Below are positions 35,866-61,038 of a stretch of DNA of 64,000 nt, in pieces. The number at the start of each line of letters is the position of its first letter. Within the stretch, counting starts at the first letter, position 1. A program made the position numbers and the translations under genes. This DNA comes from a phage, in the sequence record PZ445534.1. One strand, given 5' to 3'. Under the pieces are notes generated by a model. It saw only the letters and a list, made by a program, of their open reading frames with translations. It did no database searches and was not told the DNA's origin.

Positions 35866-35944
35866 AGTGTTTGACAAGGGGCTTCAAAGCCCCTTAGAAT
35901 AGCCTTACAAAATGATTTATTAACTAACAAGAGAGAGTAATAAG

Positions 35945-41190: not shown

Positions 41191-41254
41191 GAAACTCTGT
41201 AGGATATTCACAATAGACTAAGCCTTTCTTATCTGGTAAATTTTTCAGGTAAGG

Positions 41255-41500
41255 AGGGCTTTTTCATTTCAGATTTGTGCAGGTAGAGTTCTGTAGAGAA
41301 ATCTATAGAGAAAATTTTGAACTCCAAAGAGAAAATTCATTCTCAAACTGTGCAGGTAATCTCCAAAGAGCTTTTTCATTTTCAAAACGTGCAGACCCCG
41401 CTCAGGTCGGGCAAGAAAAATCATTTTAGAATTGTGCAGGTAGGTTTTTATAGACAGCCAGCCCAACCCCTCTCCCCCTCTTACTCCCCCTCTCCCCAAA
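41255..41500. repeat. four tandem imperfect direct repeats (TTCATTTTCA-N4-6-GTGCAGGTA core) followed by a C-rich tract
   Basis: Repeat copies near 41257, 41330, 41368, 41413; C-rich run CCCAACCCCTCTCCCCCTCTTACTCCCCCTCTCCCC at 41461-41497. Confidence 0.6.
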
Positions 41501-41618: not shown

Positions 41619-41647
41619 TTGACTCTTTGAACGTGGTTATCTAATAT
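41619..41647 (+). promoter_or_regulatory. sigma70-like promoter, type B cassette (TTGACT-17-TAATAT) followed by 5' leader hairpin
   Basis: -35 41619-41624, -10 41642-41647; hairpin GGAGAGGGAATAACCTTCCCC just downstream. Confidence 0.55.
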
Positions 41648-41713
41648 TTGCATCAACGGAGAGGGAATAACCTTCCCCACTAAATAACTAACCTTAAACT
41701 AGGAGACTCTAAA

Positions 41714-42094
41714 ATGGCATATCGTGCACCTAAATTCATCAATAAAGACAACTTTCGCAACGCACTGGAGAAGGCACTTGATGAGAATTTCAAAGGTAAC
41801 GTTATCGTTGTTCACTCGTTCAATTTCAAGTATGATATCAACGGGAACAAAATCAACCACTACACTGCAACCATGCTAGATGGTACACTATCAAGTGAAA
41901 AAGCCGTACTGAATGCACTAGCAGGACGCGGAAAAGTATTAGTAAGATGTGATAAGAGACGTTATCAAGGCGGCGCATATGGTTACGACGATGCTATTTA
42001 TCATCTTGAAAATATGGGCTATCAAGTAGAAAAAGCTGGGGTATCACAAATCATCGGTAGTGATGGCTACGTGACAATCTTCAAAATTAAATAA
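41714..42094 (+). CDS. early-array small protein 1, hypothetical
   Basis: 126-aa ORF with strong SD (AACTAGGAGACTCTAAAATG). Confidence 0.5.
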   Translation: MAYRAPKFINKDNFRNALEKALDENFKGNVIVVHSFNFKYDINGNKINHYTATMLDGTLSSEKAVLNALAGRGKVLVRCDKRRYQGGAYGYDDAIYHLENMGYQVEKAGVSQIIGSDGYVTIFKIK

Positions 42095-42101
42095 AAAGTA
42101 C

Positions 42102-42130
42102 TTTACAAGGGGCTTATAGTTCGATAAAGT
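42102..42130 (+). promoter_or_regulatory. sigma70-like promoter, type A cassette (TTTACA-17-TAAAGT) overlapping hairpin GGGGCTTA...TAAGCCCC
   Basis: -35 42102-42107, -10 42125-42130; hairpin 42109-42137. Confidence 0.5.
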
Positions 42131-42182
42131 AAGCCCCAGATAAAGAGCTTTACCACTAAATCCTAAATTGGAGAACTTAAAA

Positions 42183-42473
42183 ATGGCTACTATCAAAAAC
42201 GTTGTAATTCCTGCAAAAACTCGTGATGACGCTCGCATTATGGCTAAAAAGTTAGGCGGGAAAGTGGTTGACAACGGAAAACAATCTGCTGTAAGATGGG
42301 GCGTGAAGACTGATAGACAGTTGAAGTTAAAAAATTCACCAATAAACCTTTTTACATGTGTAAACACTATCGGGAAGACAAATGTATACACGAAAAAGGC
42401 ATATATTAGACGCGTAGCCTTAACATCCCCCATTCGTACAATGAGAGGTTATGCAAAACTGAAAATTAACTGA
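42183..42473 (+). CDS. early-array small protein 2, hypothetical basic protein
   Basis: ATG 42183 after GGAGA SD; ORF track starts at upstream TTG. Confidence 0.5.
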   Translation: MATIKNVVIPAKTRDDARIMAKKLGGKVVDNGKQSAVRWGVKTDRQLKLKNSPINLFTCVNTIGKTNVYTKKAYIRRVALTSPIRTMRGYAKLKIN

Positions 42474-42482
42474 TAAAGTACT

Positions 42483-42511
42483 TTACAGGGGGCTTAAAAG
42501 TTGGTATCTTA
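42483..42511 (+). promoter_or_regulatory. sigma70-like promoter, type A cassette (TTTACA-17-TATCTT) overlapping hairpin
   Basis: Hairpin GGGGCTTAA...TTAAGCCCC between -35 and -10. Confidence 0.5.
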
Positions 42512-42561
42512 AGCCCCAGATAAAGAGCTTTACCACTAAATCCTAAACTGGAGATTCAAAA

Positions 42562-43074
42562 ATGAAAACTGTAGACGCTACCTTTGAAGTTGTAAAAGAA
42601 AAATTCACCATTATCTATGAAGCGGTAAATTGCTACGAAGCAAGCCATAACCTTGATAATTGGAAGTTTACAGATGACCATCAAGGCGGCGTGACTGTTA
42701 AAAATCCTAACTATCAGCATAATGCATTTAAATATGCAATCCCTTTGCATTACAGCCTTAAACAGCTTTCAAGTGACTATGCAAAACAAGGCCGGGAAAA
42801 TCCATCGAAAGAGGCTTACACCAGCTTACAGAAAGAACTAGAAAGAGATTTAGAGGCTTCAGAATACAACCTTGCCGCGAAAGTTGTGGATGCAAACGGT
42901 AACACGGTTTTAGAAAGTTTTTATCTTGGTTATGCTTTCGATTGGTGCTATCGTGACGGCGATGATTTAGAGGATAGACTAAAAGAAGAGGTGAACAATT
43001 CAGACGCAGAAACTGAAGTATTAGAACGTTTGGAATCGTTGAAAGACTCAGTGATGAATATCTTTAAGAACTAA
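42562..43074 (+). CDS. early-array small protein 3, hypothetical
   Basis: 170-aa ORF with conserved leader and SD. Confidence 0.5.
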   Translation: MKTVDATFEVVKEKFTIIYEAVNCYEASHNLDNWKFTDDHQGGVTVKNPNYQHNAFKYAIPLHYSLKQLSSDYAKQGRENPSKEAYTSLQKELERDLEASEYNLAAKVVDANGNTVLESFYLGYAFDWCYRDGDDLEDRLKEEVNNSDAETEVLERLESLKDSVMNIFKN

Positions 43075-43084
43075 ATAGCTTTCT

Positions 43085-43113
43085 TTACACGGGGTTATCA
43101 AGCTGGTAGGATA
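43085..43113 (+). promoter_or_regulatory. sigma70-like promoter, type A cassette (TTTACA-17-TAGGAT) overlapping hairpin
   Basis: Hairpin GGGGTTATC...GATAGCCCC keeps pairing via U.G wobble. Confidence 0.45.
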
Positions 43114-43166
43114 GCCCCAGATAAAGAGATTTATCAAATAAAGCCCTTAAACTAGGAGATTCTAAA

Positions 43167-43463
43167 ATGAAATTATCAAATCAAGTGCGTGAAAATCTGA
43201 GCAAATTACTCAACAAAATTGATTTCATTGAAACATCAAGGAATAGTCATGATGTTATGGAATGGTTACACGGCAAAATAAAAGGCCGTCGTGTAGTGAT
43301 TTGCTTATGGAATAGTTGCAGGGAATATAAAAAACCTGTATTGCAAGTTAATATTTATGATGATACTTTTAAAAGTCCTGTAAAGTCTAAAAGCGATTTA
43401 TTAGAATCCTATGAGATAACTGTAAATGGCAAAGTATCACGTAAAGAGGAAACACCATGTTAA
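43167..43463 (+). CDS. early-array small protein 4, hypothetical
   Basis: 98-aa ORF. Confidence 0.5.
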   Translation: MKLSNQVRENLSKLLNKIDFIETSRNSHDVMEWLHGKIKGRRVVICLWNSCREYKKPVLQVNIYDDTFKSPVKSKSDLLESYEITVNGKVSRKEETPC

Positions 43464-43789
43464 TGACTGGTATCACTGCAATCATTGCCATTTTCGCGCT
43501 ATATAAGGCATATAAAGCCTATAATCTAGCAAATAAGGCAATCACACAGCAGGTCAGCAATAACCTTGTAGAGAGCTTTCTAGGGCGTCTCAGTGATGAG
43601 CAAATAAAGCGGCTAGAGATGAGCTTCAGATACAAAGCGAAAACCTATCAGATAAGTGACATCTTCAAAGATGATTTTCAGTTAATCGATGATTATAATT
43701 CACTAATAAATGCTTTAAATATCAGTGACTTAAAAGACTACTACGCTGTAATTGTTCAAGAATTGAGCAAACGAAAACAAAACTGTTGA
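43457..43789 (+). CDS. early-array small protein 5, membrane-anchored hypothetical
   Basis: N-terminal TM ITAIIAIFALY; start overlaps previous stop (ATGTTAATGA). Confidence 0.45.
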   Translation: MLMTGITAIIAIFALYKAYKAYNLANKAITQQVSNNLVESFLGRLSDEQIKRLEMSFRYKAKTYQISDIFKDDFQLIDDYNSLINALNISDLKDYYAVIVQELSKRKQNC

Positions 43790-43814
43790 CACTGGTTTTT
43801 AGATAGATTAAATT
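43786..43814 (+). promoter_or_regulatory. sigma70-like promoter, type B cassette (TTGACA-17-TAAATT)
   Basis: -35 43786-43791, -10 43809-43814, hairpin GGGGAGGGAATGACCTTCCCC at 43825-43845. Confidence 0.6.
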
Positions 43815-43879
43815 ACACATCAACGGGGAGGGAATGACCTTCCCCACTAAATAAAGTCCTTAAACTAGGAGATTCTAAA

Positions 43880-44152
43880 ATGTATACTACTAACAACGGT
43901 CGCACTTTAAATGTCACACTACGTCACTATGTAGATGGTGTCATGCACTTTGAAGACTTACAAGCTGAGCAACATATCTTAGATTGGCAAGTAGCAGGAC
44001 TCCAAAAAACTGCTACGGGATACGGTAAAAAGATTCCAACCAGTTGGAAAGTACACTACGAAGGACGTTTGCGCAGAATTTATCAGGATGTGCAAAGCAA
44101 TAGCGCATCGAGTTACATTATAGTAAAAGGCAAAAAACTGCATTTAATGTAA
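43880..44152 (+). CDS. early-array small protein 6, hypothetical
   Basis: 90-aa ORF. Confidence 0.5.
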   Translation: MYTTNNGRTLNVTLRHYVDGVMHFEDLQAEQHILDWQVAGLQKTATGYGKKIPTSWKVHYEGRLRRIYQDVQSNSASSYIIVKGKKLHLM

Positions 44153-44157
44153 AGTAC

Positions 44158-44186
44158 TTTACATGGGGCTTGGAAGTTGATATCTT
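44158..44186 (+). promoter_or_regulatory. sigma70-like promoter, type A cassette (TTTACA-17-TATCTT) overlapping hairpin
   Basis: Hairpin GGGGCTTGG...TTAAGCCCC with two G.U pairs. Confidence 0.45.
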
Positions 44187-44238
44187 AAGCCCCAGATAAA
44201 GAGCTTTACCACTCAATCCTAAATTGGAGAACTTAAAA

Positions 44239-44643
44239 ATGGCTATTAATAACCGTGAATTATCAATGTTAAAAGCACGTTTGACCGTTAATCGAATCAA
44301 CATTATGACATCATCAGCGCCTGATGAGACATTGCACAACATTATCGGAAAGATTCAAAGCGTTATTTTAGACGTTGAAAACGTAAAAAGTTCATTGGCT
44401 GACGTTGCAGCAGGTATCACGCTAGACGGTGCGCAATATGAAATGTCCGACATGTTAGGCAAATCAAAGGTAATGAATAAAGAGCTTGATTTAAAGATGT
44501 TCCGATTTGCTGTTAAAGTATGGCTATCCGTCGAGTATGACGCTAATTTTGCAATCGCTGATTTCTTTGCCACTTGGTTACAACGTAATTTGACAAATCA
44601 CGATTTTCGTGATGTCTGTGATGCAATTTATGCAGAACTCTAA
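44239..44643 (+). CDS. early-array small protein 7, hypothetical
   Basis: ATG 44239 after GGAGA SD. Confidence 0.5.
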   Translation: MAINNRELSMLKARLTVNRINIMTSSAPDETLHNIIGKIQSVILDVENVKSSLADVAAGITLDGAQYEMSDMLGKSKVMNKELDLKMFRFAVKVWLSVEYDANFAIADFFATWLQRNLTNHDFRDVCDAIYAEL

Positions 44644-44652
44644 AAAATTTTG

Positions 44653-44681
44653 TTGACACTGGTTTTTAGATAGATTAAATT
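44653..44681 (+). promoter_or_regulatory. sigma70-like promoter, type B cassette (TTGACA-17-TAAATT)
   Basis: Near-identical copy of 43786-43845 element. Confidence 0.6.
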
Positions 44682-44744
44682 ACACATCAACGGGGAGGGA
44701 ATGACCTTCCCCACTAAATAAAGTCCTAAACTGGAGATTCTAAA

Positions 44745-44948
44745 ATGGCTATTATTAACGGTTTAACCATTGAAACTACACACATCAAAGATATCAAAGT
44801 TGGCGATATAGTCCTTTCCCACGGCGTAGAAAAAACTGTCACTGCAAAGGATATCAAAGAGGATTCTTTCATGGGTAGGACTCTTTTCGGTGATTCTTAT
44901 TGCTTAGGTTACCTTGCAGTTTTAAAAGTTGTCAAAAATAACAAATAA
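44745..44948 (+). CDS. early-array small protein 8, hypothetical
   Basis: 67-aa ORF. Confidence 0.45.
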   Translation: MAIINGLTIETTHIKDIKVGDIVLSHGVEKTVTAKDIKEDSFMGRTLFGDSYCLGYLAVLKVVKNNK

Positions 44949-44953
44949 AGTAC

Positions 44954-44982
44954 TTTACATGGGGCTTATAGTTCGATAAAGT
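44954..44982 (+). promoter_or_regulatory. sigma70-like promoter, type A cassette (TTTACA-17-TAAAGT) overlapping hairpin
   Basis: Same element as 42102-42137. Confidence 0.5.
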
Positions 44983-45032
44983 AAGCCCCAGATAAAGAGC
45001 TTTACACAATCCTTAAACTAGGAGATTAAAAA

Positions 45033-45281
45033 ATGATGAATTATTTCAATATCCCTGATACCTGCCGACTGTTGACACGAGAAGAAAACTTGGGTAAACC
45101 TTTTCTTTACCACATGCCAGATAACACACCAAAAACTTATAGTTACAATGTCAACCGTTTTACCGCATACGCTGCAAAGAACGGTTATAAGTTGGTCACT
45201 CAAAAAGTAATGCTGGTTACAATCGCTGACGAGGTTCCTACGGTTGCAGTTAAACTAATTTTCTCAAAGAAAGTTAAATAA
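45033..45281 (+). CDS. early-array small protein 9, hypothetical
   Basis: 82-aa ORF. Confidence 0.45.
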   Translation: MMNYFNIPDTCRLLTREENLGKPFLYHMPDNTPKTYSYNVNRFTAYAAKNGYKLVTQKVMLVTIADEVPTVAVKLIFSKKVK

Positions 45282-45286
45282 AGTAC

Positions 45287-45315
45287 TTTACAAGGGGCTT
45301 ATAGTTCGATAAAGT
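45287..45315 (+). promoter_or_regulatory. sigma70-like promoter, type A cassette (TTTACA-17-TAAAGT) overlapping hairpin
   Basis: Same element as 42102-42137. Confidence 0.5.
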
Positions 45316-45365
45316 AAGCCCCAGATAAAGAGCTTTACACAATCCTTAAACTAGGAGATTCAAAA

Positions 45366-45908
45366 ATGAAATGCTATCACGGAACTACTCAAGAAAATTT
45401 CCTCAACCTGATTAATAACGGTGATAAACCATCAGGCGCATGGAATTGTTCGGATATGGACGGCAATTTTTACGTGTATCCAGAAAATAAAATCTATGGC
45501 GACGATGAGGAAGAAATAGCATCAGAGGGCATTCAGCAAGCTCTAGGCAATGCCACTATCACCGCAGCTTTTCAGATGAAGACTCAAAATATTGTTATCT
45601 TAGAACTCGATATTCCAGAGGATGAGCTAAATGATGATTATTCTTGTGATAATATGTCGAGTGTAGCAAGTTTTACAGAGTACTTTGATGTAAATTGGAT
45701 TAAAAAGGTCTATACAACAGAGTTTAACGCTATGTATTCACCTTTTTGTCTTCCTTCATTGGATAACCCAAATTTAAACTATCTTGATGAGCCTCTGGAG
45801 CTTCTTGCTAAAAGTGTCCAACAGTCGGACAGTATTCAGGTTTTTTGTGACATCATGGACACACTAACGGGAAACATCGCAGAAGAGGATTTAAAGAGCT
45901 TTTTCTAA
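45366..45908 (+). CDS. early-array protein 10; possible ADP-ribosyltransferase-like fold (tentative)
   Basis: N-terminal CYHGTT resembles the YHGT NAD-binding motif of H-Y-E class ADP-ribosyltransferases; otherwise unassigned. Confidence 0.25.
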   Translation: MKCYHGTTQENFLNLINNGDKPSGAWNCSDMDGNFYVYPENKIYGDDEEEIASEGIQQALGNATITAAFQMKTQNIVILELDIPEDELNDDYSCDNMSSVASFTEYFDVNWIKKVYTTEFNAMYSPFCLPSLDNPNLNYLDEPLELLAKSVQQSDSIQVFCDIMDTLTGNIAEEDLKSFF

Positions 45909-45940
45909 AAACCTATGCAATCGCCTTATAAACACTGATT

Positions 45941-45961
45941 AGCCCCTCACAGGGGCTTTTA
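45941..45961 (+). terminator. weak terminator-like hairpin
   Basis: AGCCCCT-CAC-AGGGGCT then TTTT. Confidence 0.4.
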
Positions 45962-45974
45962 AGAGGCTTAAATC

Positions 45975-46208
45975 ATGCTTACAACCGTTTATCTTATCCT
46001 TTCTATTTGTAATGGTCATTCATGTGATTTTAAAGGGCTTGATGAGTTTACAGGAAGTAAAGAAAATGCTGTTCAGGTCTGTCAGATAGCAAGGCAAGAC
46101 TACCCCGCCAGTGATGACATACAATGTTACTTTAAGACAGAAGATGAAGATGGTATCTATTTCGATAGTGTAGACGGTCAATATGAAATAATTATAGAAA
46201 AAGACTAG
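45975..46208 (+). CDS. early-array small protein 11, Cys-containing, signal-peptide-like N-terminus
   Basis: 77-aa ORF, N-terminal hydrophobic segment. Confidence 0.4.
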   Translation: MLTTVYLILSICNGHSCDFKGLDEFTGSKENAVQVCQIARQDYPASDDIQCYFKTEDEDGIYFDSVDGQYEIIIEKD

Positions 46209-46234
46209 ACAAGCCTGATAAAAATCTGTAAATT
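46206..46234 (+). promoter_or_regulatory. sigma70-like promoter, type B cassette (TAGACA-17-TAAATT)
   Basis: -10 TAAATT 46229-46234 followed by GGGGAGGGAATGACCTTCCCC hairpin. Confidence 0.5.
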
Positions 46235-46297
46235 ACTAATCAACGGGGAGGGAATGACCTTCCCCACTAAACAAAATCCTAAACTGGAGATTCAAAA

Positions 46298-46639
46298 ATG
46301 GCTTATGTAACCGTAATTACCGATAAAGCTGGCGCATCTTGGTCAACTCAGGTTAGTGATAAGATGTCGCCTATGCAGTGCCTAAAATACTTTGAACAGT
46401 GGAACAAAGGCGAGGACACAAGCCCCTTTCACGTAATGCAGATTATTCATGTAGACAATGAAGGGAAGAAAACAACCCTGAATAGTGAGTACTACGCAAG
46501 CCGTTTTGAAACGAGAAGTAAAGCAATGAAGCTCTTACGTGAGGCCGGATATGGTCACATTGCCGCGATAATCTGGGATGACCTTCTAAAAAGTCAACGT
46601 ATCAGCTATGTAAAGCCTGAAAAAATATTCATCAGTTAA
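46298..46639 (+). CDS. early-array small protein 12, hypothetical
   Basis: 113-aa ORF. Confidence 0.5.
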   Translation: MAYVTVITDKAGASWSTQVSDKMSPMQCLKYFEQWNKGEDTSPFHVMQIIHVDNEGKKTTLNSEYYASRFETRSKAMKLLREAGYGHIAAIIWDDLLKSQRISYVKPEKIFIS

Positions 46640-46768
46640 TCAATAACTTACAAAAAACTTTTAAAAAAGTGTTGACAATACCCCTTGACATTGGTAACTT
46701 TGTTCGAGGGGGTTTATCTAAAAGGGATTCACTTAAAAGATTCTTTATAGATAAGCTTAAAAAATTGC

Positions 46769-46797
46769 TTGCAATCAGCTATCAAAACAAGTAAATT
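46769..46797 (+). promoter_or_regulatory. sigma70-like promoter, type B cassette (TTGCAA-17-TAAATT)
   Basis: Followed by variant hairpin GGGAGGGATGACCTCCCC. Confidence 0.5.
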
Positions 46798-46858
46798 ACT
46801 AATCAACGGGAGGGATGACCTCCCCACTAAATAAAATCCTTAAACTAGGAGAGTCAAA

Positions 46859-47389
46859 ATGAACAAGTTTAAAGCTATCAACTTCATTCGTTCAAATGCT
46901 GTAATGTCAAAACCTGTAAAAGACACATACGAATTTCGCTGCAATGGGGTACACTTTGCAACCATCACTAAGTCAGAAAACGGGGCTTATTACGTACATC
47001 GTCGTAATGTTGCAACCGTTGTAGTCTCTCACTTTATGCAAGCTGTAGCGGAGTTATTACCGTTATTCTTAGAGATTTATCTAGGTGAGTGTAAAAACGT
47101 TCGTAACCACGTTAAAAACCTTTTAAACGGTTATAAAATGGCTTATGAACGTTCTATCAAGTCCTTGAACAAGTTCTATAAAGCCCCTGTAAATACTGTT
47201 TCAATGGCTTACAGTGTAAGCGGTGAGTTGGTTAGCCTCTTCGAAGTAGAAGAAATTGAACTATATGACTCACGTCCTAGCGGTTACTCTAAGACACTGG
47301 GAGAAGGATTATCTTTCAATATCAAGAACTTAGAAAAAACTTTAAAAGATATTGAAAAAGATATTGACGAAACAATAAAAAGTCTGTAA
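46859..47389 (+). CDS. early-array protein 13, hypothetical
   Basis: 176-aa ORF. Confidence 0.5.
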   Translation: MNKFKAINFIRSNAVMSKPVKDTYEFRCNGVHFATITKSENGAYYVHRRNVATVVVSHFMQAVAELLPLFLEIYLGECKNVRNHVKNLLNGYKMAYERSIKSLNKFYKAPVNTVSMAYSVSGELVSLFEVEEIELYDSRPSGYSKTLGEGLSFNIKNLEKTLKDIEKDIDETIKSL

Positions 47390-47392
47390 ATT
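47364..47392 (+). promoter_or_regulatory. sigma70-like promoter, type B cassette (TTGACG-17-TAAATT), overlapping 3' end of previous gene
   Basis: -35 47364-47369, -10 47387-47392. Confidence 0.5.
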
Positions 47393-47457
47393 ACTAATCA
47401 ACGGGGAGGGAATGACCTTCCCCACTAAATAAAACCCTTAAACTAGGAGATTCAAAA

Positions 47458-47706
47458 ATGGCAACTATCCGCGCTACTGTTAACGAGTTCGGTTTTTCCT
47501 CTCTGGATGTTAAATTTGACATTGTAGGCACTGATAACGCCTTTGAAATGGTGAAAGGTCTTATCAGTCAGACCATCAAAGGCTATAATCCTTCTAATGA
47601 GTTCTGGGAGGAAACAAAACAGGAAGTTCTTAAAGAGGGTTATTCTTTTCACTATTGGGGTGAAAAAATTGTCTCCCTGTACTACGACAAAGAAGGCACT
47701 AACTAA
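47458..47706 (+). CDS. early-array small protein 14, hypothetical
   Basis: 82-aa ORF, last gene before non-coding region. Confidence 0.5.
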   Translation: MATIRATVNEFGFSSLDVKFDIVGTDNAFEMVKGLISQTIKGYNPSNEFWEETKQEVLKEGYSFHYWGEKIVSLYYDKEGTN

Positions 47707-47744
47707 TCGACGCAGCGGGGCTAAATAGCCCCAGATACCTTTAC

Positions 47745-47770
47745 AGCCCCTTTCCCATAGGGGCTTTTTT
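47745..47770 (+). terminator. rho-independent terminator
   Basis: AGCCCC...GGGGCT stem plus TTTTTT. Confidence 0.6.
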
Positions 47771-49360
47771 ACGTCTATCCAATCCTCATACAACCCCTTT
47801 CCCTTTCCTTTCCAGAATCTTATCAGACCTTAAAAAGCAATAACTTTACAGCCTTTTACTAAGTCAATTAATTGGCCTTATTAATAAGCCCTTAAACATA
47901 AGCCAATAACCCCAGAAAGGGGGCAACCCATTTAAACGCCATATAAAGCCCTATAACGGCCTTTTTAACCTAACTTAAGGGATTGCATTACCTCACCCTT
48001 AAAAGCCCTTTATAAAGCTTCACAGAGCCTTAAAAGAATCTTATAAGGGTGTAAGCTTTATTATCTCGTTAGCTATCTTGTGAACTACTAAACAACCCCC
48101 TTGATAGTAACTGAAAAGTATGTTATAGGGGCTTTAAAGTTACTTTGAAGTAGCTTAAAAGTTACGTAAATGCTAGCCCCCTTAACATTTTCTTAACAAT
48201 TTCTTAACAATCCCTACATAGTTATGCTTTTAAGGCACTTGTTAGCAACTTGTTAGCCCCTTGTTAAATCTCTGTTAAGACCACGTAAAAGCCTTGTAAG
48301 AGTCTTTGACATAGCCTTAAAAGCTCCTGTAAAGCCCTATAAAGAGCTTTCTGTATAGTTGGGGTGTAACTACTAGGAAGAGACTTAAAAGAGCTTACAA
48401 GGAGCTATAGAGAGCTTTTAAGAGGTATGTTTAAAGAATCACTAGGGATTGGTAACAATACCAATTAAGAAGTAAAGGGAACGATAAGAAAAGAGTAGTG
48501 ACCATGTTAATAGCTTGTTAAAAAGATTAAACACTTGTTAGGAACTTGTTAATTATCTTAACAAAATAACTCTTTAAAATTAACTTCTTAGCTCTTGTTA
48601 GTCATCTGTTAAGATTCTGTAAAGCCTATTCAGCACTTGTTAATTGGTATTGTTACCAATCCCTAGAAAACTGTTAAGCCCTTGTTAGTTCTGTTAAGAA
48701 ACTGTTAAGACTTTTGAAGATTTGTTAAGAGCTTGAGAGAGTTGTTAAGAAATTGTTAAGGATATTTTAAAATTTTGCAAAGTACTTGTAAGGGAGCTGT
48801 TAAGGGCTACCAAGCAGATATACATCTTCTACAGATATTTTTCAGTTCCTTCAAAGACCCTAAAAAATGACTTGATAGTCCTATTTTATAAAAATTTTAA
48901 GATTCTGAATAATTACCTAGACAGTCTTTTAAAAATACAGGTAATAACAGGCTTATAAGATACCTTGTTAGTACCGTGTTAGACCTTGTGAGATAAGGTC
49001 TGTAAAGATATTCCTGTTAAGTTTGTTAAAACAGTCTATATAGAGGCTTAGTAATACCTAGTGAACACCTATAGAGGGTATCATAGCTAACCTAGAGATT
49101 AAGAGGTGTATAGGAGCTTCTAAGAGGGTATAGAGAGATGGTTAAGGTGATTGTATAGGTTGTTAAGAAGGCTTGTTAGAGGGCTTGTTAGAAGGGTTAT
49201 ACAGAGGGCTATTAAGACCACTAGATAGTTACTAAGATACTATATAGTACTATATAACTATATAGAGAGTAAGATTAAGAGGGTTGTTAAGAAGGATAGA
49301 TATTTTGTTCACATATGCTGGTGACCCAGAGGTTGGGACAACCGATGGAATTTTATAAAA
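47771..49360. repeat. 1.6 kb non-coding region dense in short (C/T)TGTTA(A/G)(G/C) repeats with a 24-bp perfect inverted repeat pair
   Basis: No ORF over 60 aa; more than 30 TTGTTAAG/CTGTTAAG/TTGTTAGC copies; GGGATTGGTAACAATACCAATTAA at 48445-48468 and its reverse complement at 48640-48663. Confidence 0.7.
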
Positions 49361-49398
49361 ATTAAAAAGCCCCCAATTAAGGAGGCTCTTAAGATATT

Positions 49399-56969: not shown

Positions 56970-56981
56970 TCTTAAAAGATG

Positions 56982-57011
56982 TTGACAGACTCTACAAAGT
57001 TGCTCTAAAGT
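56982..57011 (+). promoter_or_regulatory. sigma70-like promoter (TTGACA ... TAAAGT) embedded in inverted repeat GACAGACT/AGTCTGTC
   Basis: -35 56982-56987; -10 near 57006-57011. Confidence 0.4.
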
Positions 57012-57050
57012 CTGTCACATCAAACAACAAATGAGAGAAGAGAGTAAAAT

Positions 57051-58466: not shown

Positions 58467-58484
58467 AAAGTTTTAAAAAGGGTA

Positions 58485-58513
58485 TTGACAATGTGTTTAA
58501 TACCCTTTAATAT
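58485..58513 (+). promoter_or_regulatory. sigma70-like promoter (TTGACA-17-TAATAT) embedded in palindrome AAGGGTATT/AATACCCTT
   Basis: -35 58485-58490, -10 58508-58513. Confidence 0.5.
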
Positions 58514-58575
58514 GTTCTACATAGTAGCGAAATGAGAGCTTTTCTAAGATACTGAAAAATATTTTAAAAAAGTTC

Positions 58576-58699: not shown

Positions 58700-58706
58700 C
58701 AGAGAC

Positions 58707-58784
58707 CAAATTAATGTTCCAGTAGACAAAATGGTATAGTCACCACTCTTTCAAAGTGGATATCTGAGGGTTCAAATCCCTTCT
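58707..58784 (+). tRNA. tRNA-Glu (anticodon TTC)
   Basis: Acceptor GTTCCAG/CTGGAAC, anticodon arm CCACT-CTTTCAA-AGTGG, T-loop TTCAAAT, CCA. Confidence 0.7.
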
Positions 58785-58786
58785 GG

Positions 58787-58866
58787 AACGCCAGTTTTGA
58801 CAGAAGACCAATTACAGCAAACTTAATCTACTCATCTGAAAGTTAATCGGACAAAGAAGATATTTG
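58787..58866 (+). repeat. inter-tRNA repeat element copy 1 (ACAGAAGACC-N4-TACAGCAA ... GGTCTGG)
   Basis: Conserved 5' and 3' motifs shared with copies at 58953, 59347, 59437. Confidence 0.6.
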
Positions 58867-58875
58867 GTCTGGTCA

Positions 58876-58951
58876 TTAAGAATTGCGGGTATAGAGAAAG
58901 GGCGTCTCACATGTCTCATTAGCATGGTATCGGCAGGTTCGACTCCTGCAC
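58876..58951 (+). tRNA. tRNA with CAT anticodon (Met/fMet/Ile2), irregular acceptor pairing
   Basis: D-arm GAGA-AAGGGCG-TCTC, anticodon arm CATGT-CTCATTA-GCATG, T-arm GCAGGTTCGACTCCTGC; acceptor 6 of 7 pairs. Confidence 0.5.
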
Positions 58952-58952
58952 C

Positions 58953-59025
58953 CGCCTCCAAATTTACAGAAGACCGTTTACAGCAATATTTATTAAATTT
59001 TTAGCGGAAAAATTGAAAGATACGG
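58953..59025 (+). repeat. inter-tRNA repeat element copy 2
   Basis: ACAGAAGACCGTTTACAGCAA ... ACGGTCTGGT. Confidence 0.6.
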
Positions 59026-59034
59026 TCTGGTAAT

Positions 59035-59108
59035 ACTAAATATGGTTAGGAAGCACATAAGGTATGTGCGGTCGCCTGTTAAGCGAATGGCACAGGGTTC
59101 GAATCCCT
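59035..59108 (+). tRNA. tRNA-Asn (anticodon GTT)
   Basis: Acceptor GGTTAGG/ACTAACC, D-arm GCAC-ATAAGGTAT-GTGC, anticodon loop CTGTTAA, T-arm CAGGGTTCGAATCCCTG; no encoded CCA. Confidence 0.6.
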
Positions 59109-59119
59109 GACTAACCGCA

Positions 59120-59207
59120 AAATTAAATGTGTCGTTATCCCGTAGATGGTAGCGGTGGGGACTGTAAATCCCTTGTCATTGAGACTCGGTAGGTTCGACT
59201 CCTACAC
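59120..59207 (+). tRNA. tRNA-Tyr (anticodon GTA), long variable arm
   Basis: Acceptor GTGTCGT/ACGGCAC, anticodon arm GGGGA-CTGTAAA-TCCCT, T-arm GTAGGTTCGACTCCTAC, CCA. Confidence 0.65.
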
Positions 59208-59212
59208 GGCAC

Positions 59213-59289
59213 ACCAATAAAGGCTATGTAGTTTAACTGGAGAAAATACTCCCCTGTCACGGGAGATGATGTGAGTTCAAGTCTCATCG
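59213..59289 (+). tRNA. tRNA-Asp (anticodon GTC)
   Basis: Acceptor GGCTATG/CGTAGCC, anticodon arm CTCCC-CTGTCAC-GGGAG, T-loop TTCAAGT, CCA. Confidence 0.7.
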
Positions 59290-59346
59290 TAGCCGCCAAT
59301 TTTGAGAGGGCTATTTAGCCCCTCCCTTAAAGAGTTCTTACGAGTA

Positions 59347-59428
59347 TTCTTTAAAGGAGCAGAAGACCAAATACAGCAAGAATGTATGATATTTTCAAGC
59401 CAATTCAATTTTGAAAAATTTAAAACTT
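59347..59428 (+). repeat. inter-tRNA repeat element copy 3
   Basis: CAGAAGACCAAATACAGCAA ... CTTGGTCTGGC. Confidence 0.55.
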
Positions 59429-59436
59429 GGTCTGGC

Positions 59437-59572
59437 TCAACAAATTTACAGAAGACCGTTTACAGCAAAACTTAAACAATCTATTTCTCGGTAAAGAAAA
59501 GGCGAAGGTTCGATTCCTTCACTCGGCAGAGGTCGAGTTGGTGTAATGGTAGCACTTAAGATGATAAACAAC
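59437..59572 (+). repeat. inter-tRNA repeat element copy 4 enclosing tRNA halves in permuted order
   Basis: ACAGAAGACCGTTTACAGCAA ... [anticodon-arm-like + T-arm GAAGGTTCGATTCCTTC + 3' acceptor ACTCGGC] GAG [5' acceptor GTCGAGT + D-arm GTGTAATGGTAGCAC] ... ACGGTCTGGT. Confidence 0.5.
59474..59547 (+). other. tRNA-like segments in 3'-half then 5'-half order (permuted tRNA or recombinant tRNA fragments)
   Basis: 3' acceptor ACTCGGC (59512-59518) is complementary, with one G.U, to GTCGAGT (59523-59529) located 4 nt downstream. Confidence 0.4.
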
Positions 59573-59721
59573 GGTCTGGTAATTATCTTTGCAGTAGCTT
59601 ATGTGGCTAATTATGTCGTCCCATGAGTGCCGATGAATTTCCTTAGCATGATTCTAGATTAGCTTAATAGGAAATGACTCTACAGACCCTTTAGCAAGGT
59701 CTGCGTAGGTTACTGCAAAGA

Positions 59722-59797
59722 TGATTTAATGGAAGTGTAGCAGAATGGTGATGCGGCAGACTTTTAATCTGACAGGCGATGGGTTCGAATCCCTCCA
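59722..59797 (+). tRNA. tRNA-Lys (anticodon TTT)
   Basis: Acceptor GGAAGTG/CACTTCT, anticodon loop CTTTTAA, T-loop TTCGAAT with weak T-stem, CCA; homologous to tRNA at 60957. Confidence 0.55.
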
Positions 59798-59802
59798 CTT
59801 CT

Positions 59803-59879
59803 ACCAAAAATGGTTCAGTCGCAGATAAGGTAATGCAAGGGTTTCATAAGCCCTATGAATGTGGGTTCGATTCCCATCT
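59803..59879 (+). tRNA. tRNA with CAT anticodon (Met/fMet/Ile2)
   Basis: Acceptor GGTTCAG/CTGAACC, anticodon arm AGGGT-TTCATAA-GCCCT, T-loop TTCGATT, CCA. Confidence 0.65.
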
Positions 59880-59881
59880 GA

Positions 59882-59957
59882 ACCTCCAATGCTGTGAAAG
59901 CACATATGGATGTGCATTCGGCTGATAACCGAAAGGCAGAAGGTTCGAATCCTTCTC
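59882..59957 (+). tRNA. tRNA-Ile (anticodon GAT)
   Basis: Acceptor GCTGTGA/TCACAGT, D-arm GCAC-ATATGGAT-GTGC, anticodon arm TTCGG-CTGATAA-CCGAA, T-arm GAAGGTTCGAATCCTTC, CCA. Confidence 0.7.
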
Positions 59958-59972
59958 ACAGTACCAATTTCA

Positions 59973-60001
59973 ATAAAGTTGTTGACATTAAGATGTGACT
60001 A
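59973..60001 (+). promoter_or_regulatory. sigma70-like promoter inside tRNA array (TTGACA-17-TATAGT)
   Basis: -35 59973-59978, -10 59996-60001. Confidence 0.55.
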
Positions 60002-60205
60002 CTTTATAGTAACCTTAGTTTTCGTTGCGTAGCGTCTATTTTGCAAATTTAAAATAAATGCAAACGACAATGTTTTTCTGGCAGTAGCTTGATAGGCTAA
60101 ACACCAGTGAGGTCTTCCAATCCCTCATCAAAGAATTTGGCGTACTCGCCCACGGTATGATTAATAAGGTGGGCATCTTTAAGGGCTTTCTAATAGAGTC
60201 TTTAA

Positions 60206-60287
60206 AGATAATTACGGGGCGTATCTCAGCGGTCTTCTAAACCGCCGTTAACCGAGTAAGTGGAGTATGCGGGTTCGAGTCCTGCCG
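60206..60287 (+). tRNA. atypical tRNA-like gene, possible anticodon TCT (Arg)
   Basis: Acceptor CGGGGCG/CGCCTCG, T-arm GCGGGTTCGAGTCCTGC, CCA; hairpin GCGGT-CTTCTAA-ACCGC; D-arm region not canonical. Confidence 0.4.
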
Positions 60288-60430
60288 CCTCGACCAATTT
60301 AGTTAGCAGATTACTTAGACGACCTAAGCGGGTCTTCCTGTAGGGAGGTGGTCTGTATCTCATGTTTTCCAGAACATGTAAATAATCTGAGAAGGGGCTT
60401 TACAGTGTTGAGATAATACGGTAAGCTTCG

Positions 60431-60513
60431 AATTATAGTATGGGACGATGTTAAGACTCTAAGGCATGAGCAACGGCCTCCAAAACCGTTTCAAAGGGGT
60501 TCAACTCCTCCGT
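60431..60513 (+). tRNA. atypical tRNA-like gene, possible anticodon CCA (Trp)
   Basis: Perfect acceptor ATGGGAC/GTCCCAT, T-loop TTCAACT, CCA; enlarged D region. Confidence 0.4.
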
Positions 60514-60526
60514 CCCATGCCAAAGT

Positions 60527-60614
60527 CTTATTAGGGGTAGGTAGCGGCTAATGGCAGCCAAACAGTCTTGAAAACTGTTGCCACTGTAGAGATACGGTGA
60601 GGGTTCGACTCCTT
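60527..60614 (+). tRNA. tRNA-Ser (anticodon TGA), long variable arm
   Basis: Acceptor GGTAGGT/ACTTACC, anticodon arm ACAGT-CTTGAAA-ACTGT, 20-nt variable arm, T-loop TTCGACT. Confidence 0.6.
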
Positions 60615-60770
60615 TACTTACCGCCTAATAAGATTTTAAAGCCAAGCTTCATTCGGATGTCGCTTTGGTATCCCTCGTGTATTGTCGTACACACTGATAA
60701 AACACCTAGTAGGTGTCACGGAGAAGAGATAATATCAAGCTCTCCAAAGGTTCTAGTCACCGGATTAAAC

Positions 60771-60797
60771 AAGACTATGCAAAGACCTTTTTAGGTC
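60771..60797 (+). terminator. rho-independent terminator inside tRNA array
   Basis: AGACC-TTTTT-AGGTCT plus TTTTT. Confidence 0.5.
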
Positions 60798-60872
60798 TTT
60801 TTAGAGGGCTTCTAAGGTTATTACAGCTTGTTGTGGAACCTTGTTGCTTAGGTTCTTAGAAGTTCTCTAAAA

Positions 60873-60949
60873 AGATTTAATGCACCTATAGCCCAACTGG
60901 TAGAGGCAGCAGACTTAGAATCTGCTCAGTGTGAGTTCGAATCTCTCTA
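60873..60949 (+). tRNA. tRNA with anticodon TAG (Leu by anticodon) but short variable arm
   Basis: Acceptor GCACCTA/TAGGTGT, anticodon arm GCAGA-CTTAGAA-TCTGC, T-loop TTCGAAT, CCA. Confidence 0.55.
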
Positions 60950-60956
60950 GGTGTAC

Positions 60957-61032
60957 CAAATTAATGCAGGTGTAGCAAAATGGTTATGCGGCTGACCCTT
61001 AATCAGTAAGACGATGGGTTCAATTCCCTCCA
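60957..61032 (+). tRNA. tRNA-Lys (anticodon CTT)
   Basis: Acceptor GCAGGTG/CACCTGT, anticodon arm GCTGA-CCCTTAA-TCAGT, T-loop TTCAATT, CCA. Confidence 0.55.
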
Positions 61033-61038
61033 CCTGTA

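What the first reader, a model, noticed from the sequence alone, without database searches (positions are those of the whole stretch)
42100..45320. Cassette hairpins are maintained by compensatory changes including G.U pairs, indicating RNA-level function
Type A hairpin variants GGGGCTTA/TAAGCCCC, GGGGCTTAA/TTAAGCCCC, GGGGTTATC/GATAGCCCC and GGGGCTTGG/TTAAGCCCC keep pairing through covarying bases and G.U wobbles that would be mismatches in DNA. The type B stem GGGGAGGG/CCTTCCCC likewise contains a G.U. Candidate roles are processing sites in read-through transcripts (as in the T7 early region), 5' stabilising stem-loops, or factor-dependent terminators; they lack U-tracts. In type A the -10 hexamer sits inside the 3' half of the stem, coupling promoter and RNA structure, and promoters at 56982 and 58485 are similarly embedded in inverted repeats.
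Basis: seen in the sequence. Interest (0 to 1): 0.6.

Follow-up and report, generated by a model that had tools for sequence, protein, structure and literature searches.

The report
Promoter-in-hairpin gene cassettes of Felix O1-like phage
The early genes of this Felix O1-like phage are separated by repeated cassettes in which a host-type promoter is built into a conserved RNA stem-loop; the pairing is kept by compensatory and G.U changes across four phage genera. This is the same kind of element as the "PeSL" cassettes of T4-like phages and has not been described for this phage group.

Summary
The window is a Felixounavirus. Between 41.6 and 47.7 kb, about 13 small + strand genes are each preceded by a cassette. 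Type A (6 copies) has a TTTACA-17-TAnnnT promoter inside a GGGGYTTA/TAAGCCCC hairpin. Type B (6 copies) has a TTGACA-17-TAAATT promoter followed by a GGGGAGGG/CCTTCCCC hairpin. I collected 64 distinct type A hairpins from four Ounavirinae genera. Six of 11 stem pairs change on both sides, G.U outnumbers A.C by 54 cells to 1, and covariation exceeds every shuffle and slid control. The short hairpin is only the top of a roughly 57-nt two-part helix. Its lower part pairs the -35 region with +4 to +15, so the structure spans the whole promoter and can form only in read-through RNA. Its size and energy match T7 early RNase III sites. The cassettes are also junctions for gain and loss of genes. The closest known kind is PeSL (RB49/phi1). 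Selection on RNA structure is well supported. The function is unresolved: processing or 3' protection versus attenuation. A 5' stabiliser role fits only type B. This is a new member of a known kind, of moderate interest.

The parts
42095..42151 (+). Type A cassette 1: two-part stem-loop. Lower helix 42095-42105 with 42141-42151; upper hairpin 42109-42137. Embedded promoter TTTACA 42102 to TAAAGT 42130. Precedes the gene at 42184-42473.
   Evidence: MFE -20.7 kcal/mol, z -4.8
42471..42535 (+). Type A cassette 2: upper hairpin 42489-42517 (GGGGCTTAA/TTAAGCCCC). Promoter 42482-42510 (TTTACA-17-TATCTT). Precedes the gene at 42562-43074.
   Evidence: -22.9 kcal/mol
43075..43134 (+). Type A cassette 3: upper hairpin 43091-43118 (GGGGTTATC/GATAGCCCC, U.G at pair 5). 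The lower helix has compensated pairs (AGCUUUCUUUA / UAAAGAGAUUUAU). Promoter 43084-43112 (TAGGAT). Precedes the genes at 43167-43463 and 43457-43789.
   Evidence: (-20.8 kcal/mol)
44149..44209 (+). Type A cassette 4: upper hairpin 44165-44193 (GGGGCTTGG/TTAAGCCCC, two G.U). Promoter 44158-44186. Precedes the gene at 44240-44643.
   Evidence: -27.9 kcal/mol
44946..45004 (+). Type A cassette 5: upper hairpin 44961-44989. Promoter 44954-44982. Precedes the gene at 45033-45281.
   Evidence: -25.1 kcal/mol, z -6.4
45279..45337 (+). Type A cassette 6: upper hairpin 45294-45322. Promoter 45287-45315. Precedes the gene at 45366-45908.
   Evidence: -21.6 kcal/mol
41619..41678 (+). Type B-like cassette, first in the array: promoter TTGACT-17-TAATAT (41619-41647). 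Degenerate hairpin GGAGAGGG/CCTTCCCC at 41658-41678, with one A.C and one G.U. Precedes the gene at 41714-42094.
   Evidence: (D2)
43786..43845 (+). Type B cassette: promoter TTGACA-17-TAAATT (43786-43814). Hairpin 43825-43845, at the 5' end of its own transcript. Precedes the gene at 43880-44152.
44653..44712 (+). Type B cassette: promoter 44653-44681, hairpin 44692-44712. Precedes the gene at 44745-44948.
46206..46265 (+). Type B cassette: promoter TAGACA-17-TAAATT (46206-46234), hairpin 46245-46265. Precedes the gene at 46298-46639.
46769..46824 (+). Type B cassette with a shortened stem: promoter TTGCAA-17-TAAATT (46769-46797, read by eye). Hairpin GGGAGG-gatga-CCTCCC at 46808-46824; one base has been lost from each arm. 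Precedes the gene at 46859-47389.
47364..47423 (+). Type B cassette: promoter TTGACG-17-TAAATT (47364-47392), hairpin 47403-47423. Precedes the gene at 47458-47706.
47717..47775 (+). End of the array: remnant hairpin GGGGCTAAATAGCCCC (47717-47732) followed by AGATACCTTTACA. Then a canonical intrinsic terminator at 47745-47765 with a T run.
41220..41271 (+). Canonical intrinsic terminator (17-bp stem plus T run) upstream of the array. It shows that this phage uses U-tract terminators where it needs them.
   Evidence: it is t13 in Table 2 of the Felix O1 paper
56981..57017 (+). Another promoter inside an inverted repeat: TTGACA-18-TAAAGT, with 12-nt arms TGACAGACTCTA/TAAAGTCTGTCA.
58477..58514 (+). 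Another promoter inside an inverted repeat: arms AAAGGGTATT/AATACCCTTT overlap -35 (TTGACA at 58485) and the spacer; -10 is TAATAT.
35869..35901 (+). Promoter-like TTGACA-18-TAGAAT with the hairpin GGGGCTT-ca-AAGCCCC lying wholly in the spacer.

Best explanation
These are PeSL-type regulatory cassettes: sigma-70 early promoter plus stem-loop plus Shine-Dalgarno sequence, in a Felix O1-like phage. One stretch of DNA carries two signals.

Read as duplex DNA it is a host-RNA-polymerase promoter that starts the mRNA of the next small early gene.

Read as RNA it is a conserved stem-loop that marks the boundary between cistrons. In type A that RNA exists only in transcripts that run through from the upstream promoter. 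There the structure is a two-part helix of about 57 nt: an A/U-rich lower helix of 5+5-6 bp, a 3x3 internal loop, a 9-bp upper helix with a G/C-rich base, and a 10-13 nt loop that holds the -10 hexamer. It runs from about -42 to +16 of the embedded promoter. I infer that it is cut in or near the internal loop by a double-strand-specific endonuclease (host RNase III, as at the T7 early R sites), that it slows or attenuates read-through, or both. Either way the upstream mRNA ends in a protective 3' hairpin. The downstream mRNA then has nearly the same 5' end whether it was newly initiated or processed.

In type B the promoter lies upstream of an 8-bp hairpin. The gene's own transcript therefore starts with a 5'-terminal stem-loop of the ompA-stabiliser type.

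The roughly 100-bp cassettes are repeated in tandem, so they also act as homology patches through which whole gene modules are deleted, inserted or swapped.

Shown: the repeats, the promoter consensus, the structure, the covariation, the strand asymmetry and the chimeric junctions. Inferred: start sites, formation of the structure in vivo, cleavage, attenuation and stabilisation.

My split of probability, as shares within the 0.55 given to this reading: RNase III-type processing about 0.35-0.4; attenuation or 3' protection without cleavage about 0.35; something else at RNA level the remainder.
For: Identity and spread:
- The window is 94-95% identical to Felixounavirus genomes.
- Cassette A is found in 288 phage records, all Ounavirinae apart from a few oddly named records. 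It occurs in Felixounavirus, Mooglevirus, Suspvirus and Kolesnikvirus.

Promoter:
- The -35 TTTACA and the T, A and T of the TAnnnT -10 are invariant or nearly so in 62 distinct copies, while the rest of the loop varies.

Structure:
- Pair 3 is G-C, or U-A in all Erwinia-phage copies.
- Pair 5 is C-G, U.G or U-A. Pairs 7-9 swap orientation.
- Six of 11 pairs have double changes. The covariation score is 0.360 against 0.123 for shuffles, 0/500.
- RNAalifold, run independently on 82 real 61-nt cassettes, returns the two-part helix. 98.3% of cells are paired; the score is 0.137 against 0.062 (0/500), and slid registers reach at most 0.054.
- In the lower helix G-C becomes U-A at position k11. That change breaks the self-palindrome of each flank but keeps the pairing between the flanks.

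Strand:
- There are 54 G.U cells against 1 A.C cell. The + strand hairpin is the more stable in 50 of 64 sequences.
- Within orthologous groups there are 21 WC<->G.U changes, 8 double changes and 1 change to A.C.

Size and energy:
- Type A cassettes fold at -20.7 to -27.9 kcal/mol, z -3.0 to -6.4.
- T7 R0.3, R0.5 and R1.3, folded the same way, give -24.4 to -26.2 kcal/mol, with a lower helix, an internal loop and a 9-13 bp upper helix.

Not built as strong terminators:
- No U tract follows the hairpins, yet canonical U-tract terminators bracket the array.

Analogy:
- The PeSL stem-loop of RB49 cut downstream lacZ expression about as much as rrnB T1 (PMC2839356).
- RB49 PeSLs have the same geometry.

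Recombination:
- Modules are present or absent as whole units among relatives, and the junction cassettes are chimeric.
Against: - No transcript ends, cleavage data or reporter data exist for any Felix O1-like phage in the library searched. Every functional step is therefore inference.
- The lower helix is mostly invariant. Its covariation rests on two or three columns, and one slid register (+3) comes close to it: 0.069 against 0.084. Its conservation could instead reflect promoter (UP/-35) and leader constraints.
- The terminal loop is 10-13 nt, against 3-5 nt in T7 R sites.
- Type B has no lower helix and no double substitutions; its arms vary only by matched indels.
- Paralogous copies exchange sequence, so counts of changes are not independent events.
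- G.T pairs are also the least harmful mismatch in single-stranded DNA, so a + strand DNA hairpin is not excluded.
Confidence: 0.55

Rival explanations
1. The element is purely a transcription attenuator or terminator. The G/C-based hairpin stops or pauses polymerases coming from upstream, as proposed for PeSLs, without any RNA cleavage. The lower-helix complementarity would be a by-product of the conserved promoter and leader sequence.
For: - The PeSL stem-loop of RB49, which also lacks a U tract, reduced downstream lacZ about as much as rrnB T1 (PMC2839356).
- The RNA just after the hairpins is A/U-rich (AGAUAAAGA, ACUAAAUAA), which gives a weak RNA-DNA hybrid.
- Tandem strong promoters create a need to limit cumulative read-through.
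Against: - There is no U tract, although the same phage uses textbook U-tract terminators at both ends of the array.
- A 10-13 nt loop is unusual for a terminator.
- The covariation and near-perfect pairing of the lower helix have no role in intrinsic termination, because that helix can close only after the polymerase has passed +16.
Confidence: 0.25
2. The feature acts at DNA level only. The inverted repeats would be operators for a dimeric phage or host regulator, or hairpins/cruciforms in DNA that serve recombination or replication. The apparent compensatory changes would arise from hairpin-templated repair (quasi-palindrome correction), not from selection on RNA.
For: - Each flank is itself a near-palindrome (AAAGTACTTT, AAAGAGCTTT) placed on either side of the promoter core.
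- The cassettes are recombination junctions.
- Template-switch correction of quasi-palindromes is an established mutational process in T4 and E. coli (general knowledge).
Against: - The upper-stem sequence differs between copies within one genome while complementarity is kept, so a single protein could not read them all.
- The spacing between arms varies from 2 to 13 nt among the phage's promoter-associated repeats.
- The change at position k11 destroys the palindromy of each flank but preserves pairing between the flanks.
- G.U pairs persist for long periods and are strand-specific: 54 against 1 A.C. Templated correction would make the arms perfectly complementary, and a cruciform would carry A.C mismatches on the other strand.
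- Central loops of 10-13 nt strongly disfavour cruciform extrusion (general knowledge).
Confidence: 0.1
3. The hairpins are 5'-terminal stabilising stem-loops for the cassette's own mRNA in both cassette types. This was one of the first reader's options.
For: For type B the predicted start lies about 4-6 nt upstream of an 8-bp G/C hairpin. That matches the known requirement for 5' stem-loop stabilisers such as ompA (general knowledge).
Against: For type A, the only promoter with conserved -35 and -10 bases places the start at or after the last base of the 3' arm. The alternative upstream hexamer TACTTT lacks a conserved A at its second position: TGCTTT, TCCTTT, AGCTTT and TTCTTT all occur. The type A hairpin is therefore not in its own transcript.
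Confidence: 0.1

Closest known systems
PeSL (promoter-early stem-loop) cassettes of T4-like phages RB49/phi1, PST and nt-1 (Arbiol et al. 2010, PMC2839356; Comeau et al. 2014, PMC4122927)
   Same: - An intergenic block of about 100 bp that starts at the upstream stop codon and has an A/T-rich lead-in.
- A sigma-70-type promoter.
- A stem-loop with a G-run and a C-run, placed in the spacer, overlapping -10, or after -10.
- G-T pairs in the stems and no U tract.
- It ends in a Shine-Dalgarno sequence plus ATG.
- It is clustered among small genes of unknown function.
- Copies act as recombination junctions for loss and gain of modules.
- Even the SD-to-ATG string is almost the same: GGAGAATCAAAAATG in RB49 against GGAGATTCAAAAATG here.
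   Different: - A different phage lineage: Ounavirinae, not Straboviridae.
- No blastn-level similarity of the cassette to RB49 or phi1. The 288 records that match the cassette are listed by genus, and none is a T4-like phage.
- The -35 is TTTACA.
- Type A has an additional conserved lower helix, so the whole promoter sits inside a structure of about 57 nt. The RB49 PeSLs I folded show only 7-9 bp stems.
- Mini-circles and terminator activity have not been tested here.
RNase III processing sites of the T7 early region (R0.3, R0.5, R1, R1.1, R1.3)
   Same: - Intergenic hairpins in a tandem array of early genes transcribed by host polymerase.
- An upper helix of 9-13 bp, an internal loop and an A/U-rich lower helix.
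- The same predicted stability: -24 to -26 kcal/mol against -21 to -28 kcal/mol.
- No U tract.
- In T7, minor E. coli promoters (B, C) and phage promoters also lie next to these sites.
   Different: - No sequence similarity.
- The terminal loop is 10-13 nt instead of 3-5 nt.
- The internal loop is a symmetric 3x3.
- A strong promoter is embedded in the element itself.
- Cleavage has not been tested.
- Type B hairpins are too short to be RNase III substrates.
Promoter-coupled terminators of bacteria (Fletcher et al., bioRxiv 2026, 10.64898/2026.08.19.745784)
   Same: A single DNA segment serves both the 3' end of the upstream unit and the promoter of the downstream unit in tandem genes, and the stem-loop DNA contributes promoter elements.
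   Different: In the bacterial case the stem-loop supplies the -35, a T tract fills the spacer, and the termination site lies about 10 bp upstream of the start. Here the stem-loop spans the spacer, -10 and discriminator, and there is no T tract.
5'-terminal stem-loop mRNA stabilisers (ompA type)
   Same: Type B only: a stable hairpin within a few nucleotides of the predicted 5' end, upstream of the ribosome-binding site.
   Different: This is not applicable to type A. The start site and any effect on half-life are not measured.

Membership tests
PeSL cassettes | Sigma-70-like early promoter with an A/T-rich upstream region | tested here: met
   TTTACA-17-TAnnnT (type A) and TTGACA-17-TAAATT (type B) are called by the scan at every copy. 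The -35 and the T, A and T of the -10 are invariant or nearly so in 62 distinct copies. Upstream is A/T-rich: AAATAAAGTAC.
PeSL cassettes | Stem-loop with G-run/C-run arms, placed between -35 and -10, overlapping -10, or downstream of -10 | tested here: met
   Type A overlaps the spacer, -10 and discriminator; type B lies downstream of -10. The promoter at 35869 has the stem wholly in the spacer, and the one at 58477 overlaps -35.
PeSL cassettes | [quoted passage not shown] | tested here: met
   all flanking genes are annotated as hypothetical proteins of 67-180 aa.
PeSL cassettes | Recombination between copies produces gain or loss of modules | tested here: met
   Presence or absence of whole modules is seen across 19 loci. 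Junction cassettes are chimeric in wV8, L079 and Felix O1. Mini-circles were not tested.
PeSL cassettes | The stem-loop reduces downstream expression (terminator/attenuator activity) | not testable with these tools
   This needs reporter or transcript-end data. None was found for Felix O1-like phages.
PeSL cassettes | Sequence homology to the RB49/phi1 elements | tested here: not met
   A sensitive blastn search with cassettes A and B hits only Ounavirinae-type records. The authors themselves treat non-homologous elements in other T4-like phages as PeSLs or analogues, so homology does not define the class.
RNase III processing site (T7 R-site type) | About two helical turns of mostly double-stranded RNA, often interrupted by an internal loop | tested here: met
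   Type A has a lower helix of 11-12 positions, a 3x3 loop and an upper helix of 9-10 bp. T7 sites folded the same way are comparable. Type B (8 bp) does not meet this.
RNase III processing site (T7 R-site type) | Cleavage by RNase III in vivo or in vitro | not testable with these tools
   No data exist. No Rfam family matches the region.
Intrinsic (Rho-independent) terminator | G/C-rich hairpin with a short loop, followed directly by a U tract | tested here: not met
   The terminator scan calls none of the cassette hairpins. The tails are AGATAAAG and ACTAAATA, and type A loops are 10-13 nt.
5'-terminal stem-loop stabiliser | The hairpin begins within a few nucleotides of the transcript's 5' end | tested here: inconclusive
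   This is predicted for type B from promoter geometry and predicted not to hold for type A. Start sites have not been measured.
Palindromic operator for a dimeric DNA-binding protein | Conserved half-site sequence at fixed spacing | tested here: not met
   Upper-stem sequences differ between copies in one genome while complementarity is kept. Substitutions in the flanks break within-site symmetry but keep between-site pairing.

The most novel reading that the evidence does not exclude
The most novel reading not excluded is that type A is a new class of dual-coded element. An entire strong sigma-70 promoter would be enclosed in a two-part RNA helix of about 57 nt that serves as an RNase III site only in read-through transcripts. 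Cleavage in the internal loop, directly beside the promoter's own start site, would give processed and newly initiated mRNAs the same 5' end. Each early gene would then be an autonomous, insulated and portable expression unit.
Probability: 0.25. Interest if true: 0.6.

Novelty: new member of a known kind. Interest (0 to 1): 0.4.

Why it matters
Felix O1-like phages are widely used for Salmonella and E. coli typing, biocontrol and therapy. Their transcription programme is nevertheless essentially unknown: the genome paper states that read-through, secondary promoters and temporal control are not understood.

Recognising these repeats as promoter/stem-loop cassettes has three consequences:
- It gives a concrete map of about a dozen early promoters.
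- It yields a testable model of how the early polycistronic RNA is punctuated.
- It explains why early-gene content differs between otherwise near-identical phages: whole modules are lost or gained at the cassettes.

It also shows that the PeSL design is not peculiar to T4-like phages, which suggests a general solution for portable, self-contained early-gene modules. The compact promoter-plus-insulator units could be useful parts for phage engineering.

Tried and rejected
- **MAFFT alignment of whole hairpins (A1).** It mis-registers the 28-nt class by putting a gap in the 3' arm only, so I did not use it for pair counts. Instead I used arm-anchored constructs with an artificial linker (A2, A3) and, as a check on real contiguous sequence, the 82 cassettes of equal length (A4).
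- **The first loose fuzzy patterns.** They hit many unrelated contigs. I then restricted the set to loci related by blastn.
- **Rfam scan of 41.0-48.5 kb at permissive E-values.** It returned only two chance snoRNA hits.
- **Lower helix for type B.** Only an occasional GUUGA/UCAAC pairing appears, and it is not conserved when the -35 varies.
- **Kolesnikvirus relatives labelled Salmonella, Enterobacter or Hafnia.** They are about 86% identical to MM7 and added no new lineage.
- **Literature.** I found no transcript mapping for Felix O1-like phages and no earlier interpretation of the repeats. The Felix O1 paper lists them as 57-bp and 39-bp direct repeats. The wV8 record calls them DR_1 to DR_9. 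The ASO1B record annotates type B as a promoter plus a predicted terminator. The KhF records annotate the type B hairpin as a terminator on the wrong strand.
- **Lambda nut/boxB-like or put-like antitermination for type B.** I considered and dropped this: there is no resemblance in the loop or the architecture, and no N-like protein evidence was sought.
- **Alternative -10 (TACTTT) upstream of the type A hairpin.** Rejected, because the second position of that hexamer is not conserved.

Full report
**What the window is**

The finding region is 94-95% identical to Felixounavirus genomes (ULIM3, KhF1-3, LMP33). It matches 247 Felix O1-like records. It corresponds to genes 14-23 of Felix O1: small early genes of unknown function downstream of rIIA/rIIB.

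**Checking the observation**

Type A has six copies. The upper hairpins start at 42109, 42489, 43091, 44165, 44961 and 45294. The layout is:

...TAA-AAAGTAC-TTTACA-n-[GGGGYTTA..loop..TAAGCCCC]-AGATAAAGAGCTTTAC...GGAG..ATG

Type B has copies at 43825, 44692, 46245 and 47403, a shortened copy at 46808 and a degenerate copy at 41658. The layout is:

TTGACA-17-TAAATT-acacatCAAC-[GGGGAGGG aatga CCTTCCCC]-ACTAAATAAAG...GGAG..ATG

The consensus scan calls a promoter at every copy. In type A the -10 (TAAAGT, TATCTT or TAGGAT) lies in the loop and overlaps the 3' arm by 1-4 nt. No hairpin is followed by a U tract. By contrast, the array is bracketed by textbook U-tract terminators at 41220 and 47745.

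**Is the pairing selected?**

I collected copies from relatives using anchors that exclude the stem (CTTTACA...AGATAAAGAG). The sources were IMG/VR and annotated genomes of four Ounavirinae genera:
- Felixounavirus;
- Mooglevirus (Maleficent, Sf18);
- Suspvirus (SUSP1, SUSP2);
- Kolesnikvirus (Erwinia phages MM7 and phiEa104).

This gave 64 distinct type A hairpins. Their pair states are:
- Pair 3: G-C, but U-A in all Erwinia-phage copies (GGTG.../...CACC).
- Pair 5: C-G, U.G (the majority), or U-A in one SUSP2 copy.
- Pairs 7-9: orientation changes (UA/AU, AU/UA, AU/UA/CG/GC).
- Pairs 10-11: formed in some copies.

The upper pairs covary with the free inner bases of the -10 hexamer.

Statistical support:
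- Each sequence's own 3' arm gives 8.97 contiguous pairs, against 6.31 for shuffled partners (0/10000).
- On an arm-anchored alignment the covariation score is 0.360, against 0.123 for shuffles (0/500) and at most 0.067 for slid registers. Six of 11 pairs change on both sides.

The observation therefore holds, and it is much stronger than the four variants visible in the window suggest.

**RNA or DNA?**

- Mismatches within pairs 1-9 are almost all of the kind that pairs in + strand RNA: 54 G.U cells, 1 A.C cell and 11 others.
- As RNA, the + strand hairpin is more stable than its complement in 50 of 64 sequences (mean -12.0 against -9.7 kcal/mol).
- I grouped copies by the gene they precede, giving 21 orthologous groups. 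Differences from the group's commonest hairpin comprise 21 WC<->G.U changes, 8 double (WC to WC) changes, 1 change to A.C and 5 others. The C-G/U.G alternation at pair 5 appears in six groups.
- Cassettes exchange sequence, so these are not independent events. The asymmetry is still hard to explain by a duplex-DNA feature.
- A dimeric-protein operator is also unlikely, because upper-stem sequences differ between copies in one genome while complementarity is kept.

Folding 78-80 nt around each type A copy gives the same structure in all six:
- a lower helix, AAAGUACUUUA with UAAAGAGCUUU: 5 bp, a 1x1 A.A mismatch, then 5-6 bp;
- a 3x3 (sometimes 2x2) internal loop, CAn/AGA;
- the 9-10 bp upper helix;
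- a 10-13 nt loop.

The free energy is -20.7 to -27.9 kcal/mol, with z -3.0 to -6.4.

RNAalifold, run independently on 82 distinct real 61-nt cassettes, returns this two-part structure. 98.3% of cells are paired. The covariation score is 0.137 against 0.062 for shuffles (0/500), and slid registers reach at most 0.054.

Taken alone, the lower helix is mostly invariant and its support is moderate:
- Position k11 is G-C or U-A.
- Position k10 is U.G, U-A or C-G.
- Position k13 is A-U or G.U.
- The score is 0.084 against 0.050 (0/500), but one slid register reaches 0.069.

One detail is informative. Each flank is itself a near-palindrome. The substitutions at k11 (AAATTGCTTT paired with AAAGAGATTT) break that self-symmetry but keep pairing between the flanks. 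This favours a long-range helix over two separate protein sites.

The structure runs from about -42 to +16 of the embedded promoter. It can therefore exist only in RNA that reads through from upstream. The promoter's own transcript starts at or just after the last C of the 3' arm; this is inferred from the spacing after -10. An alternative -10 upstream of the hairpin (TACTTT) is ruled out, because its second position is not conserved.

**Type B**

Type B is only an 8-bp hairpin and has no lower helix. Its variation consists of matched loss of bases in both arms: GGGGAGGG/CCTTCCCC, GGGGAGG/CCTCCCC and GGGAGG/CCTCCC. There are no double substitutions. Promoter geometry places the hairpin about 4-6 nt from the transcript's 5' end.

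**Comparison with known systems**

*PeSL cassettes.* The PeSL papers describe the following in T4-like phages RB49 and phi1 (PMC2839356, PMC4122927):
- repeated intergenic cassettes with a sigma-70-like early promoter;
- a stem-loop with a G-run and a C-run, placed in the spacer, overlapping -10 or -35, or downstream of -10;
- G-T pairs in the stems;
- a Shine-Dalgarno sequence plus ATG at the end;
- one stem-loop that lowered lacZ expression about as much as rrnB T1;
- recombination between copies that shuffles small genes of unknown function.

I extracted real RB49 PeSLs. They have 7-9 bp stems, no U tract and no lower helix. Their SD-to-ATG string (GGAGAATCAAAAATG) is almost identical to the one here.

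The recombination property also holds here. Among 19 loci, modules are present or absent as whole units. The junction cassettes are single or chimeric, for example:
- L079 M0|M2 switches from one parental cassette to the other inside the SD region;
- Felix O1 M5|M10 switches near the hairpin.

All defining PeSL features that can be tested from sequence are met. There is no sequence homology to the RB49 elements.

*T7 early RNase III sites.* Folded the same way, these show a lower helix of 5-8 bp, an internal loop and an upper helix of 9-13 bp, at -24 to -26 kcal/mol. That is the same shape and stability as type A, apart from T7's short terminal loops.

*Bacterial promoter-coupled terminators.* These share the dual-use idea but have a different geometry and a T tract.

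**Most likely mechanism**

The DNA is read in two ways.
- As duplex DNA it is a promoter.
- As RNA from read-through transcripts it is a boundary marker.

For type A, the conserved two-turn interrupted helix and the absence of a U tract make me favour endonucleolytic processing (RNase III type), 3'-end protection, or both. Classical termination seems less likely. Attenuation in the PeSL sense remains a close rival. For type B, a 5'-terminal stabiliser for the gene's own mRNA is the simplest reading. None of this is shown. I found no transcript-end data for any Felix O1-like phage.

**Novelty**

- The Felix O1 genome paper lists these sequences only as 57-bp and 39-bp direct repeats, and says that how transcription proceeds is unknown.
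- The wV8 record labels them DR_1-DR_9.
- The ASO1B record annotates type B as a promoter plus a predicted terminator.
- I found no paper that links them to PeSLs, reports covariation, or notes the lower helix.

This is therefore a new member of a known kind. Interest is moderate, and would rise if the processing model proves right.

Noticed in passing
window 47770-49390: About 1.6 kb with no ORF of 50 aa or more, between the end of the + strand early array and the first - strand gene. It is packed with CTTGTTA(A/G)/CTGTTAAG units, often 11 bp apart, and with their complement TTCTTAACAA at 48180-48216. It also holds a 32-nt inverted repeat (48442-48473 / 48635-48666, 97%). It looks like an iteron-type protein-binding array, possibly a replication origin. 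It corresponds to the non-coding gap between genes 23 and 24 of Felix O1.
   Followed up: partly
window 58700-63600: A cluster of tRNA genes, seen as repeated T-arm sequences (GGTTCGAATCC...). I did not run the tRNA finder (families D4-D7).
   Followed up: no
window 42150-42186 and all cassettes; L132 (RB49) intergenic regions: The ribosome-binding stretch of the cassettes (CTAAACTGGAGATTCAAAAATG, and GGAGAATCTAAAATG in Mooglevirus) is almost identical to that of RB49 PeSLs (GGAGAATCAAAAATG), although the rest of the cassette is unrelated. This could be convergence on an optimal initiation region, or exchange between phage groups.
   Followed up: partly
window 45935-45975: Inside the array, the gene at 45975-46208 is preceded not by a cassette but by a small canonical terminator-like hairpin with a T run (TAGCCCCTCACAGGGGCTTTT). 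It is the one module without its own cassette promoter.
   Followed up: no
window 46660-46700: Two overlapping TTGACA hexamers (gtgTTGACAatacccCTTGACAttgg) followed by a G-rich stretch, in the 220-nt spacer before the cassette at 46769. This may be an additional promoter pair.
   Followed up: no
public record GU169904.1 (hit H64): A 147-kb record named Staphylococcus phage SA1 carries a 92.6% match to the Felix O1-type cassette, and one Campylobacter-named record also matches. These are probably chimeric or mislabelled records rather than true occurrences outside enterobacterial phages.
   Followed up: no
L001 (KhF1, KT184313.1), locus 3060-3080, 3925-3945, 5483-5503: In the KhF1-3 records the type B hairpins are annotated as Rho-independent terminators on the strand opposite to the genes. 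This is likely an artefact of automatic prediction.
   Followed up: partly
L073, L089, L128 (Erwinia phages): Two Kolesnikvirus copies have the type A promoter and hairpin but a different downstream flank (GTCGAAACAAACAACC), so they lack the 3' strand of the lower helix. These natural variants could show what the lower helix is needed for.
   Followed up: no
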